Assembly (NCBI RefSeq): GCF_030384885.1
Contig: NZ_CP128613.1
Reading direction: 5' to 3' (one strand)
Source of the DNA: Escherichia coli
GTDB taxonomy: Bacteria; Pseudomonadota; Gammaproteobacteria; Enterobacterales; Enterobacteriaceae
DNA length: 64,000 bases
Made by a program: the position numbers and the translations under genes
Shown: one piece after another, positions 14,875-62,882 of the stretch
Position numbering within the stretch: position 1 is the first letter of the stretch
How the letters are laid out: the number at the start of each line of letters is the position of its first letter
The notes under the pieces: generated by a model
Told to the model about the DNA's origin: nothing
The model's database searches: none
Seen by the model: the letters and a program-made list of their open reading frames with translations, nothing else

Positions 14875-14900
14875 TTATCCCGATTTCCTCAATTGAAATG

Positions 14901-14929
14901 AACCCGATGATCTGCGCATCGGGTTTTTT
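14901..14929 (+). terminator. Rho-independent terminator after cheW
   Basis: Stem aacccgatg/catcgggtt followed by a T-run. Confidence 0.8.
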
Positions 14930-14960
14930 ATGTCAATTTTGCGGTGGATGGCATCATTAA

Positions 14961-14987
14961 TAAAGTTTCCCTCCTTCTTGCCGATAA
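14961..14987 (+). promoter_or_regulatory. Sigma-28 (FliA) promoter of the tar-tap-cheRBYZ operon, TAAAGTTT-N11-GCCGATAA
   Basis: Exact match to the FliA consensus 32 nt upstream of the tar ATG. Confidence 0.85.
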
Positions 14988-28421: not shown

Positions 28422-29177
<756 letters not shown>

Positions 29178-29223
29178 TTTTTACCGTTGCATCATGTCGC
29201 CCAATATGATGCTTGCTCGTACC

Positions 29224-29257
29224 AGGCCCCTGCAATTTCAACAGGGGCCTTTTTTTA
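29224..29257 (+). terminator. Rho-independent terminator after cutC
   Basis: Stem aggcccctg/caggggcct, loop caatttcaa, followed by T7. Confidence 0.8.
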
Positions 29258-40193: not shown

Positions 40194-40715
40194 ATGGCTA
40201 TTATTCTCGGCATTGACCCGGGTTCGCGCGTGACCGGCTATGGCGTCATCCGCCAGGTGGGCAGGCAGCTGTCCTACCTGGGTAGCGGATGTATACGCAC
40301 CAAAGTAGATGATTTACCGTCTCGTCTTAAGCTCATCTATGCGGGCGTGACGGAAATCATCACCCAGTTCCAGCCTGATTATTTCGCCATTGAACAAGTC
40401 TTTATGGCTAAAAATGCCGACTCGGCCCTGAAGCTGGGGCAGGCGCGTGGCGTGGCGATTGTGGCGGCGGTGAATCAGGAATTACCGGTATTTGAATACG
40501 CGGCACGTCAGGTAAAGCAAACGGTGGTAGGTATTGGTAGTGCCGAAAAAAGCCAGGTGCAGCATATGGTTCGCACCTTGCTGAAACTCCCCGCTAATCC
40601 TCAGGCGGATGCCGCTGATGCGCTGGCAATTGCCATCACCCACTGCCACGTTAGTCAGAATGCGATGCAGATGAGCGAATCGCGGCTGAACCTGGCGAGA
40701 GGGCGACTGCGTTAA
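40194..40715 (+). CDS. ruvC: Holliday junction resolvase RuvC (173 aa)
   Basis: [31 protein letters not shown]...; ATG at 40194 (track ORF starts one codon earlier at a GTG). Confidence 0.95.
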
Positions 40716-40716
40716 G

Positions 40717-41319
40717 TTATACCGCCTCAGTCAATTCAGGCTGAGGCGTTTCTACTCCCTCCGCATGAATCAACACCAAACCCGGATGATGCCACAAACT
40801 GGCTGGTGTTACGGTTTTACGCTCCCACGGAATCGAACCTAAAAACCAGAATTTCCAGAAAGTGAGTTTTGCGTTCGGATTGCTATTTAGCAGTTCTCCA
40901 AACGTCTCTATTTCACCCACCGGAATACATAACGCCTCTTTATAAATATCAAAAACGAATTTTGAGCAGAACTGGCGGGAAGATTCGTATTTAAAGCCGG
41001 TGTGGTAGAGCTTATGCAACCGTCCGGGGACCTTTTCGACCAGAGCAAGTTTTTGCTCTGCGGTTAAACCTCCTGCGAGGCGGCGAACACCGTAGCGTTG
41101 ATCGGTCGACCGTTCAATAAATCGTGACAAAGTTGTGATTGTGGAGAGCGGAACTCGACTCTCCGCAACCAGGTAATCATCACCGTCATGTCCGATGATT
41201 ATCCCCACATGGTTGCTCCAGCATTTCGAGGCTGCAGAGATTTGCCCAAACAGGCGAGCACCGATGCAGGTAAAAACAATATCACCGGTTTCATATTTAG
41301 CTGGGTAATTTATTTTCAC
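40717..41319 (-). CDS. yebB: Uncharacterised protein YebB (200 aa)
   Basis: [46 protein letters not shown]...; convergent with ruvC with 1 nt between the stop codons. Confidence 0.88.
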
Positions 41320-41412
41320 TATATCAATCCATTATTTATATATAAAACAGCATCTATCTTTCGTGATGGTAAAGCATTAGCATTGTATTATAATAATGAC
41401 AAGGAATGTTTT

Positions 41413-42237
41413 ATGCGGTTATTTATTAATGTGATAATTATAGTTTCGATCAGTCAATGCGTGAATGTATTTGCTCAAGATAATGTCATCCGCTATCCCT
41501 GGCGATATGGACGTATTTCTTTAAATGAGAATAATGAGTTTGTGCCTCAAATTATTCATATGCGTGATGATATCTACGGCGTGGGTGAAGCTGGTGCAAG
41601 CCTTAACGATGCGAGAATGGCGCAAAGTGGTGTCGCCGTGAGGCTTAGCGTTATACAGCAGGGGCAGGTGGTGAATGCTTTACTGGATTTCTACAATAGC
41701 AATAATCAACCTGCTTATATCTTTGAAGGTGGTTTGATGCCTTGCAATAAAGCCTTTGACATCACAACAAGCAACATTGTCCTTGATGGGATGTGTGGAA
41801 TTTATGATGGGGTCGATGGCTGGCAAGTTATTCCTGCGGGTGATCATTATAAAGAATCATTTTCACTCACTCAGGCTTTTGAATTTCTGCCGGGAAAACA
41901 TCATTATAAAATTAATGCCGGAAGTTTTATCATCAGAGTCGGGGATGATATTTTTGCAAGAGAGGACGCCGAAAGCATTCTTTTTGATTTGATTAACTGG
42001 CGATATGGCTATGTGCTAAAAAGTTATGAAAGGGTGTCGAAGTGGGATTTAATGGCAGGGACTTATGTACTGCCTGAATACTCGGGGGATAAAAGAATGG
42101 ATGAGTATCGAATTTACTCAAACCAGGTGTCGATTGATCTTAATGGTGACGAGTTAGCACATACGGAGTCCTATCAGTGGCGAATTGATAGCGGAATGAT
42201 CCCGGAAAAATTCAGCGTTCAGGAACTCGCTGAATGA
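41413..42237 (+). CDS. Hypothetical secreted/periplasmic protein (274 aa), function unknown; first gene of an AT-rich islet
   Basis: Track ORF 41188-42237 trimmed to the ATG at 41413 because the upstream part overlaps yebB on the opposite strand and 41413 has an RBS (AAGGAA); N-terminus MRLFINVIIIVSISQCVNVFA|QDN looks like a Sec signal peptide; hand-counted G+C about 38-40%; no recognised family. Confidence 0.65.
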   Translation: MRLFINVIIIVSISQCVNVFAQDNVIRYPWRYGRISLNENNEFVPQIIHMRDDIYGVGEAGASLNDARMAQSGVAVRLSVIQQGQVVNALLDFYNSNNQPAYIFEGGLMPCNKAFDITTSNIVLDGMCGIYDGVDGWQVIPAGDHYKESFSLTQAFEFLPGKHHYKINAGSFIIRVGDDIFAREDAESILFDLINWRYGYVLKSYERVSKWDLMAGTYVLPEYSGDKRMDEYRIYSNQVSIDLNGDELAHTESYQWRIDSGMIPEKFSVQELAE

Positions 42238-42274
42238 ATCGTCCTCTACCTGCTTGCCAGATACAGAGGCGCGG

Positions 42275-60135: not shown

Positions 60136-62882
<2,747 letters not shown>

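What the first reader, a model, noticed from the sequence alone, without database searches (positions are those of the whole stretch)
40713..40719. Convergent genes with essentially no 3' spacer (ruvC/yebB and ptrB/exoX)
The ruvC (+) and yebB (-) stop codons are 1 nt apart, and the ptrB (+) and exoX (-) stops overlap within a shared TTAA (62220-62223). Neither junction has room for a terminator, implying mutual 3'-UTR antisense overlap and possible transcriptional interference.
Basis: seen in the sequence. Interest (0 to 1): 0.2.

Follow-up and report, generated by a model that had tools for sequence, protein, structure and literature searches.

The report
Back-to-back E. coli genes, no spacer
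Two pairs of E. coli genes that face each other really do end within one base of each other or share four bases, but this is a common, already-documented arrangement: one gene's transcription stop signal sits inside the last codons of its neighbour, and the other pair relies on the Rho termination factor and has published overlapping transcripts.

Summary
ruvC(+) stops at 40713-40715 and yebB(-) at 40717-40719, 1 nt apart. ptrB(+) and exoX(-) share TTAA at 62220-62223. Both geometries match K-12 and are present in 5,425 of 5,426 complete E. coli genomes.

It is not unusual. Three of the window's 10 convergent junctions have spacers of 6 nt or less. The literature counts 58 convergent overlaps in E. 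coli, with a known 4-nt peak that includes TTAA.

"No room for a terminator" is true only of the intergenic DNA. A 10-bp hairpin plus UUUCU (40723-40753) lies in the last 12 yebB codons. Published Term-seq maps the ruvC 3' end exactly there in K-12, with a Rho-dependent region about 75 nt further on. Wherever yebB abuts ruvC, a hairpin is present, and it is always stronger in the ruvC-sense RNA.

ptrB/exoX has no hairpin. exoX transcripts are Rho-terminated about 470 nt into ptrB, and exoX-ptrB is already published as a convergent "excludon". Overlap is documented for ruvC into yebB and for exoX/ptrB. yebB reading into ruvC is not seen, because yebB is nearly silent.

Verdict: real, ordinary and already known. 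Low interest.

The parts
40194..40715 (+). ruvC CDS (stop TAA at 40713-40715)
   Evidence: ORF list; RefSeq annotation; 100% identical RuvC protein in E. albertii and E. coli loci
40716..40716 (.). the single spacer base (G) between the two stop codons
   Evidence: sequence
40717..41319 (-). yebB CDS (permuted papain-like enzyme, Pfam PF05708). The stop is at 40717-40719. The 200-aa K-12-type start is at 41319; PGAP calls a shorter start at 41280.
40723..40748 (+). 10-bp hairpin (CGCCTCAGTC-AATTCA-GGCTGAGGCG) of the ruvC intrinsic terminator. It is encoded on the opposite strand by yebB codons 190-199 (...TPQPELTEA).
   Evidence: terminator scan; fold about -18 to -19 kcal/mol, z -3.05; 95.8% of cells paired and 4 of 10 pairs with compensatory changes across 12 taxa; stronger in ruvC sense in 11 of 11 abutting junctions
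40749..40753 (+). short U-tract (TTTCT). 40753 corresponds to the Term-seq 3' end of ruvC mRNA mapped in K-12 (1946817, minus strand).
   Evidence: PMC7815308 Supp. file 1, transferred to the window through the 98% identical alignment
40790..40870 (+). approximate equivalent of the Rho termination region downstream of the ruvC hairpin, antisense to yebB (K-12 1946742, about window 40828). The RNA here is C-rich.
   Evidence: PMC7815308 Supp. file 2: Rho score 7.8, p 1.2e-29; C/G 1.4-1.8 over +1..+140
60163..62223 (+). ptrB CDS (oligopeptidase B), stop TAA at 62221-62223
62220..62882 (-). exoX CDS (exonuclease X), stop (TTA) at 62220-62222
62220..62223 (.). shared TTAA: 4-nt overlap of the two CDSs
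   Evidence: one of the four tetramers (CTAA/TTAA/CTAG/TTAG) behind the 4-nt peak of convergent overlaps (PMC2174442)
61540..61820 (-). C-rich stretch of the exoX read-through RNA inside ptrB (C/G 1.5-2.1). It includes the equivalent (about 61749) of the Rho termination region mapped in K-12 at 1927253(+), 471 nt past the exoX stop.
   Evidence: PMC7815308 Supp. file 2: Rho score 6.3, p 3.4e-10; skew profile

Best explanation
Both junctions are ordinary tail-to-tail gene pairs whose transcription stop signals lie inside the partner gene rather than in intergenic DNA. They use two different solutions.

(1) ruvC/yebB. The ruvC transcript (nudB-yebC-ruvC direction) ends at a hairpin plus short U-tract written into the last 12 codons of yebB. 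This tail lies beyond the conserved YebB domain and is variable across the family. The U-tract is weak (UUUCU). Some polymerases therefore read through, and Rho stops them about 75 nt further on, because that RNA is untranslated, C-rich antisense. Shown: the geometry, the hairpin, its conservation and strand bias, the 3' end in K-12 and the Rho-sensitive region in K-12. Inferred: that the same holds in this strain, that the hairpin causes the 3' end, and that it replaced the ancestral ruvC terminator when yebB was inserted between ruvC and ruvA. That ancestral terminator is the LexA-box palindrome plus T-run found in front of ruvA.

(2) ptrB/exoX. There is no hairpin on either strand. exoX transcripts run several hundred nucleotides antisense into ptrB until Rho terminates them. 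ptrB transcripts presumably do the reverse into exoX. The result is complementary 3' ends that can form RNase III substrates, which is the published 'convergent excludon' exoX-ptrB. The TTAA overlap itself is just the compact way for two stop codons to sit on opposite strands.
For: Geometry.

Hairpin: terminator scan; fold -18.9 kcal/mol, z -3.05.

Experimental 3' end: it falls exactly after the hairpin plus UUUCC in K-12 and is classed 'primary (ruvC), antisense (yebB)' (PMC7815308 Supp. file 1). The position within the 61-mer was checked against the thrL entry.

Rho regions: antisense to yebB (score 7.8, p 1e-29) and antisense to ptrB (score 6.3, p 3e-10). C/G skew matches both.

Comparative data:
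- In the 11 junctions where yebB abuts ruvC (13 yebB-ruvC junctions were examined in all; Escherichia, Pseudocitrobacter, Citrobacter, Klebsiella, Salmonella), the spacer is always -4, 0 or +1.
- In each of these a hairpin starts 3-8 nt after the ruvC stop.
- All 11 hairpins are more stable in ruvC sense, with 1-3 G-U pairs in that sense and 0 in the other. K-12 gives -17.2 vs -9.0 kcal/mol.
- 4 of 10 stem pairs show compensatory changes.
- K. oxytoca has lost yebB but kept, and strengthened, the hairpin plus UUUU.
- The YebB C-terminal tail is unconserved in the family.

ptrB/exoX: no terminator-like sites at the junction and fold z about 0. exoX-ptrB is in the MG1655 excludome (PMC12288877). 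Antisense reads are roughly 12-40% of sense for exoX and ptrB, and p19-captured dsRNAs are present (PMC7373196).
Against: All transcript data come from K-12 MG1655 or related lab strains, not from this strain, whose hairpin differs at 4 positions. Only one Term-seq dataset, in one condition (LB, OD 0.4), reports the ruvC 3' end, and its read count is close to the lowest values listed for that strand. The TERMITe and SMRT-Cappable-seq supplements do not list it. A 3' end after a hairpin could also arise from exonuclease trimming of a longer Rho-terminated RNA. The covariation rests on 12 related sequences inside a coding region. No 3' ends were found for yebB or ptrB, so their termination is inferred only from C/G skew. 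The ruvC-yebB pair is not in the published excludon list.
Confidence: 0.8

Rival explanations
1. The hairpin at 40723-40748 is a collision-type bidirectional terminator (Ju et al. 2019; Wang et al.). It would pause polymerases coming from both ruvC and yebB, and head-on plus trailing collisions would release them, setting the 3' ends of both genes.
For: It is a stem-loop placed exactly at the boundary of a convergent pair, and its U-tract is poor, as described for such elements. The hairpin can still fold in yebB sense (-9 to -14 kcal/mol in Escherichia).
Against: The G-U pairs make it consistently weaker in yebB sense (11 of 11). yebB is almost silent (sense 1-3 RPM), so head-on collisions would be rare. 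The model works best for highly expressed genes. The ruvC 3' end sits at the canonical distance after the stem within a U-run. No yebB 3' end is reported. The Ju et al. tables could not be read.
Confidence: 0.1
2. The hairpin is a by-product of YebB protein coding, or a chance palindrome, with no role in transcription. ruvC transcripts are terminated only by Rho inside yebB, and the mapped 3' end is an exonuclease stop at a stable stem.
For: A strong Rho-dependent region lies 75 nt downstream. Rho-terminated RNAs are typically trimmed back to stable structures (PMC7815308 text). The U-tract has only three U's followed by C.
Against: The tail is not conserved as protein across the family, yet the stem is kept with compensatory and strand-biased changes. 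K. oxytoca retains and strengthens the hairpin plus UUUU with no yebB left to code. C. amalonaticus and Salmonella have different tail sequences but still have a ruvC-sense hairpin at the same place. Even in this scenario the element would still define the ruvC 3' end.
Confidence: 0.1
3. The abutting or overlapping stops are selected regulatory devices (excludons). Transcription of one gene would repress its partner by interference or RNase III cleavage, for example ruvC expression silencing yebB, or reciprocal control of exoX and ptrB.
For: exoX-ptrB is called an excludon in at least 50% of 58 RNA-seq samples. dsRNAs are captured from exoX and ptrB. yebB antisense reads exceed sense reads in all three strains. 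The abutting geometry is conserved across genera.
Against: No experiment shows reciprocal expression for either pair. Overlapping 3' ends occur at 276 of 370 convergent operons (PMC4161252), so overlap alone does not indicate regulation. There is no obvious functional link between a protease and an exonuclease. ruvC-yebB is not in the excludon list.
Confidence: 0.15

Closest known systems
Short convergent (tail-to-tail) gene overlaps in prokaryotes, including the 4-nt class CTAA/TTAA/CTAG/TTAG (Lillo & Krakauer 2007, PMC2174442)
   Same: ptrB/exoX is exactly the TTAA case. That paper also notes that terminators of such genes must lie in the partner's coding sequence, and finds them in 21 of 58 E. 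coli convergent overlaps.
   Different: ruvC/yebB does not formally overlap (1-nt spacer), but it behaves the same way.
Convergent excludons / overlapping 3' UTRs in E. coli (ExcludonFinder, PMC12288877; Conway 2014, PMC4161252)
   Same: exoX-ptrB, and the window's uspC-otsA, are named members of the published MG1655 list. 146 of 165 such pairs have terminators predicted inside the neighbour's transcription unit.
   Different: ruvC-yebB is not on the list. Its overlap is short (37 nt plus leak) and one-sided, because yebB is barely expressed.
Canonical intrinsic (Rho-independent) terminators
   Same: GC-rich 10-bp stem, 6-nt loop, a 3' end 5 nt after the stem within a U-run, and a position 8 nt after the stop codon.
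   Different: The U-tract is only UUUCU/UUUCC, against U6-7 in the ancestral ruvC terminator of other Enterobacterales. It lies wholly inside a coding sequence on the other strand and is backed up by Rho.
Collision-driven bidirectional terminators (Ju et al. 2019; Wang et al., bioRxiv 10.1101/2022.10.23.513370)
   Same: A stem-loop at the boundary of a convergent gene pair, with a weak U-tract.
   Different: The stem stability is strand-asymmetric, the partner gene is nearly silent, and no 3' end is mapped for the partner.

Membership tests
4-nt convergent CDS overlap (TTAA class) | Two stop codons on opposite strands sharing a tetramer CTAA/TTAA/CTAG/TTAG | tested here: met
   TTAA at 62220-62223: ptrB TAA at 62221-62223, exoX TTA at 62220-62222
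Intrinsic terminator (ruvC element 40723-40753) | GC-rich stem-loop directly followed by a U-rich tract on the transcribed strand | tested here: met
   10 pairs, 7 of them G-C, loop of 6, then TTTCTACT. The U-tract is short: the scan's 5-of-8 T criterion is only just met.
Intrinsic terminator (ruvC element 40723-40753) | An RNA 3' end mapped in vivo within the U-tract | tested here: met
   K-12 Term-seq 3' end at 1946817(-) = ...GGCGUUUCC-3' (PMC7815308). This comes from the literature and from K-12, not from this strain.
Intrinsic terminator (ruvC element 40723-40753) | Factor-independent termination in vitro, or insensitivity to Rho inhibition | not testable with these tools
   Needs in vitro transcription or bicyclomycin Term-seq at this position
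Convergent excludon (exoX-ptrB) | Transcription units of the two convergent genes overlap in RNA-seq coverage | tested here: met
   Listed in Table 1 of PMC12288877. Rho region 471 nt into ptrB. Antisense reads of 3-9 RPM on both genes. Evidence is from the literature and from K-12.
Convergent excludon (exoX-ptrB) | Mutually exclusive or reciprocal expression through interference or RNase III | not tested
   No pair-specific data found. p19-captured dsRNAs exist in exoX, but sense levels are similar in WT and rnc strains.
Convergent excludon (ruvC-yebB) | Both transcription units overlap | tested here: inconclusive
   ruvC into yebB is shown. yebB into ruvC gives about 1 RPM antisense. The pair is absent from the published list.
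Collision-type bidirectional terminator | Defined 3' ends of both convergent transcripts flanking one stem-loop, independent of Rho and of a U-tract | tested here: not met
   Only the ruvC 3' end is reported, and the stem is weaker in yebB sense in 11 of 11 taxa.

The most novel reading that the evidence does not exclude
After yebB was inserted between ruvC and ruvA, ruvC was separated from its ancestral terminator, the LexA-box palindrome plus T-run that still sits in front of ruvA. The dispensable C-terminal tail of YebB was then overprinted with a replacement terminator that is selected on the opposite (ruvC-sense) strand. This would be a clean natural example of a protein tail and an antisense-strand terminator sharing the same 36 nt. 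The hairpin survives even where yebB has since been deleted (K. oxytoca).
Probability: 0.5. Interest if true: 0.3.

Novelty: already known. Interest (0 to 1): 0.12.

Why it matters
It matters little beyond good annotation practice. A missing intergenic spacer does not mean a missing terminator, so 3' UTRs and terminators should also be looked for inside the convergent partner's coding sequence. For people engineering or deleting yebB, removing its last 12 codons would also remove the ruvC terminator. For ptrB/exoX the overlap is already catalogued as an excludon whose regulatory consequence is untested.

Tried and rejected
Supplements of other 3'-end datasets gave nothing for these four genes:
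- TERMITe (PMC12207403) and SMRT-Cappable-seq (PMC6131387) had no entries.
- Dar & Sorek 2018, Choe 2022, Conway 2014 and ExcludonFinder have no supplements held as text.
- Ju et al. 2019 (PMC6814526) is not held.

No paper in the library mentions yebB together with ruvC.

Rfam gave no family at the ruvC/yebB junction at E<=1. Across the whole window only MicL and C0465 pass gathering thresholds.

A hairpin at ptrB/exoX or otsA/uspC was looked for and not found.

I considered that the yebB stop might be misannotated. I rejected this because the frame is fixed by the conserved domain and the stop is the first in frame.

I did not run a cross-species survey of ptrB/exoX.

Full report
**Where the window comes from.** A 1.3-kb query spanning the finding is 100% identical to the E. 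coli 2013C-4282 chromosome (NZ_CP027579.1); window position = record position - 567,608. RefSeq annotation of the record was fetched for the whole window.

**Check of the observation.** The sequence reads ...CTG CGT TAA G TTA TAC CGC.... The ruvC stop is at 40713-40715, one G sits at 40716, and the yebB stop (TTA on the + strand) is at 40717-40719. At the second site the sequence reads ...GTA GAT TAA GTA TTT.... The ptrB stop is at 62221-62223 and the exoX stop at 62220-62222, so the two CDSs share TTAA at 62220-62223. ORF lists and the annotation agree.

K-12 MG1655 has identical geometry: yebB 1946251-1946853(+) with ruvC 1946855-1947376(-), and exoX 1926120-1926782(+) with ptrB 1926779-1928839(-). 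Both junctions are found in 5,425 of 5,426 complete E. coli genomes.

**Is it more than chance?** No.
- The annotation gives 10 convergent junctions in the window, with spacers of -4, 1, 6, 41, 54, 77, 120, 131, 146 and 164 nt.
- Lillo & Krakauer (PMC2174442) count 58 convergent overlaps in E. coli. [quoted passage not shown] They also note that in 21 of these overlaps at least one gene has a Rho-independent terminator inside its partner.
- Scaling the window's density (10 junctions per 64 kb) to the genome gives roughly 700 convergent pairs, so about 8% overlap. This is my own rough inference.
- In the Term-seq study of Adams et al., 99 curated 3' ends are both "primary" for one gene and "antisense" to another.
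- Conway et al. found that 276 of 370 convergent operons have overlapping 3' ends, by 286 nt on average (PMC4161252).

**ruvC/yebB: the terminator is inside yebB.**

Hairpin. A consensus scan finds one terminator-like site next to the junction: CGCCTCAGTC-AATTCA-GGCTGAGGCG at 40723-40748, followed by TTTCTACT (10 pairs, 7 of them G-C). It folds at about -18 to -19 kcal/mol (z = -3.05 for the 66-nt context). On the other strand these bases are yebB codons 190-199 (T-P-Q-P-E-L-T-E-A), plus V200 and the stop.

Published 3' end. Term-seq for K-12 (PMC7815308, Supp. file 1, LB OD 0.4) lists a 3' end at 1946817(-), classed "primary: ruvC; antisense: yebB", with flanking sequence ...CCGCCTCGGTCAGTTCCGGCTGAGGCGTTTCC|ACTCC. 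I checked the position of the 3' end within the printed 61-mer using the thrL entry. The RNA therefore ends 5 nt after the stem, 38 nt after the ruvC stop. By the 98% identical alignment, this corresponds to window 40753.

Rho back-up. Supp. file 2 of the same paper lists a Rho termination region at 1946742(-), antisense to yebB (Rho score 7.8, p = 1.2e-29). That is 75 nt further downstream, about window 40828, where the read-through RNA is C-rich (C/G 1.4-1.8). The picture is a leaky embedded intrinsic terminator with a Rho back-up.

Expression. Huang et al. (PMC7373196, Table S1c) give yebB sense reads of 3.3/1.3/1.7 RPM and antisense reads of 98/4.0/7.2 RPM (WT/rnc-14/rnc-38). ruvC has 15-17 RPM sense and 0.7-1.2 RPM antisense. 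The overlap is therefore one-sided in practice.

**Comparative evidence.** I fetched 80 RuvC loci from Enterobacterales genomes.

Ancestral arrangement. In 68 of 79 usable loci, ruvA follows ruvC directly (70-223 nt). In 65 of these, a CTG-N10-CAG palindrome plus T-run (GGCTGGATATnnATCCAGCC TTTTTT) lies within 120 nt of the ruvC stop. This is the LexA-box-type palindrome that in E. coli sits in front of ruvA (window 42959-42976 plus T7). It looks like the ancestral ruvC terminator. Eleven loci carry 0.76-2.4 kb insertions between ruvC and ruvA.

Where yebB abuts ruvC:
- This is seen in Escherichia, Pseudocitrobacter, Citrobacter sp. FP75, C. amalonaticus, Klebsiella sp., K. spallanzanii and Salmonella Uppsala.
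- The spacer is always -4, 0 or +1 nt, and a hairpin starts 3-8 nt after the ruvC stop.
- In all 11 such junctions the hairpin is more stable in the ruvC-sense RNA than in the yebB-sense RNA. It has 1-3 G-U pairs in the ruvC sense, which become A-C mismatches in the yebB sense. Examples: K-12 -17.2 vs -9.0 kcal/mol; C. amalonaticus -14.8 vs -6.3 kcal/mol.
- On a 12-sequence alignment, 95.8% of cells pair and 4 of 10 pairs show compensatory double changes. None of 500 shuffles reached the covariation score. This is suggestive only, given how few and how related the sequences are.
- K. oxytoca has lost yebB but keeps the last ~40 nt, with a stronger stem and UUUU.

The YebB tail. After the conserved ...[13 protein letters not shown] motif, the tail varies in length and sequence across the family. 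yebB copies at other loci (Providencia, Proteus, Budvicia, E. cloacae) have ordinary spacers of 63-300 nt. Scandinavium and P. vulneris have a 195-aa YebB, a 28-nt spacer and a different hairpin that favours the yebB sense.

Together these results support a hairpin selected for the ruvC transcript and written into a dispensable protein tail.

**ptrB/exoX: no hairpin, Rho and long overlap.**
- No terminator-like site lies near the TTAA, and neither strand folds better than shuffles (z = 0.97 and 0.00).
- The K-12 Rho map lists a region at 1927253(+), antisense to ptrB (Rho score 6.3, p = 3.4e-10). It lies 471 nt past the exoX stop, about window 61749, inside a C-rich stretch of the read-through RNA (C/G 1.5-2.1 at +400..+680).
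- ExcludonFinder (PMC12288877, Table 1) lists exoX-ptrB, and uspC-otsA, among the 165 convergent excludons seen in at least 50% of 58 MG1655 RNA-seq samples.
- Huang et al. report antisense reads at roughly 12-40% of sense for both genes. They also report p19-captured dsRNAs in exoX and ptrB.
- I found no 3' end for ptrB. The ptrB read-through RNA becomes C-rich only at +300-400 and +560-680, so its termination is inferred.

**Interpretation.** It is already published for exoX/ptrB, and it is right in one direction for ruvC/yebB. "No room for a terminator" confuses intergenic space with terminator space. Transcriptional interference remains untested for both pairs. The collision-type bidirectional terminator model is a possible alternative for the ruvC/yebB hairpin. 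It is disfavoured by the strand asymmetry and by the near-silence of yebB. No Rfam family matches the junction.

**Verdict.** This is a real but ordinary feature of E. coli genome organisation, already covered by published genome-wide work. The only mildly new point is evolutionary: the terminator in the yebB tail appears to replace the ancestral LexA-box terminator of ruvC. Interest 0.12.

Noticed in passing
window 42959-42984: The LexA/SOS-box-type palindrome GCTGGATATCTATCCAGC plus T7 upstream of ruvA folds as a hairpin plus U-tract (z -3.1). In 65 of 68 Enterobacterales loci where ruvA directly follows ruvC, this palindrome plus T-run lies within 120 nt of the ruvC stop. The ruvAB operator therefore appears to double as the ancestral ruvC intrinsic terminator. 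No Term-seq 3' end is listed there for K-12.
   Followed up: partly
window 40716-43026; loci L007, L008, L017, L020, L021, L025, L032, L040-L042, L068: The ruvC-ruvA interval is an insertion hot spot. 11 of 79 Enterobacterales loci carry 0.76-2.4 kb there. Contents include yebB, a small membrane protein homologous to window 42254-42859, and, in Kosakonia sp. S29, an XRE-like regulator whose CDS overlaps ruvC by 29 nt.
   Followed up: partly
window 40976-42859: The yebB allele is mosaic. Its 3' ~260 nt are about 95% identical to K-12, while the 5' half drops to 50-78%. It is followed by two lower-GC hypothetical genes (41188-42237, 40% GC, overlapping the yebB 5' end; 42254-42859, 45% GC) in place of K-12 yobI. 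Only 48 of 5,425 E. coli genomes match this region at 90% identity or more.
   Followed up: partly
Neither strand has a hairpin. It is published as the excludon uspC-otsA, with Rho regions antisense to otsA and otsB in K-12.
   Followed up: partly
window 40717-41319 (K-12 data): In Huang et al. 2020 Table S1c, antisense reads over yebB are 98 RPM in wild type but only 4-7 RPM in two rnc mutants. ruvC sense stays at 15-17 RPM. The wild-type excess is unexplained; possibilities are a stable ruvC 3' fragment, an antisense promoter, or sample noise.
   Followed up: no
window 28949-29256 (+) and 14894-14971 (-): Rfam gathering-score matches to the sRNAs MicL (within or after cutC) and C0465.
   Followed up: no
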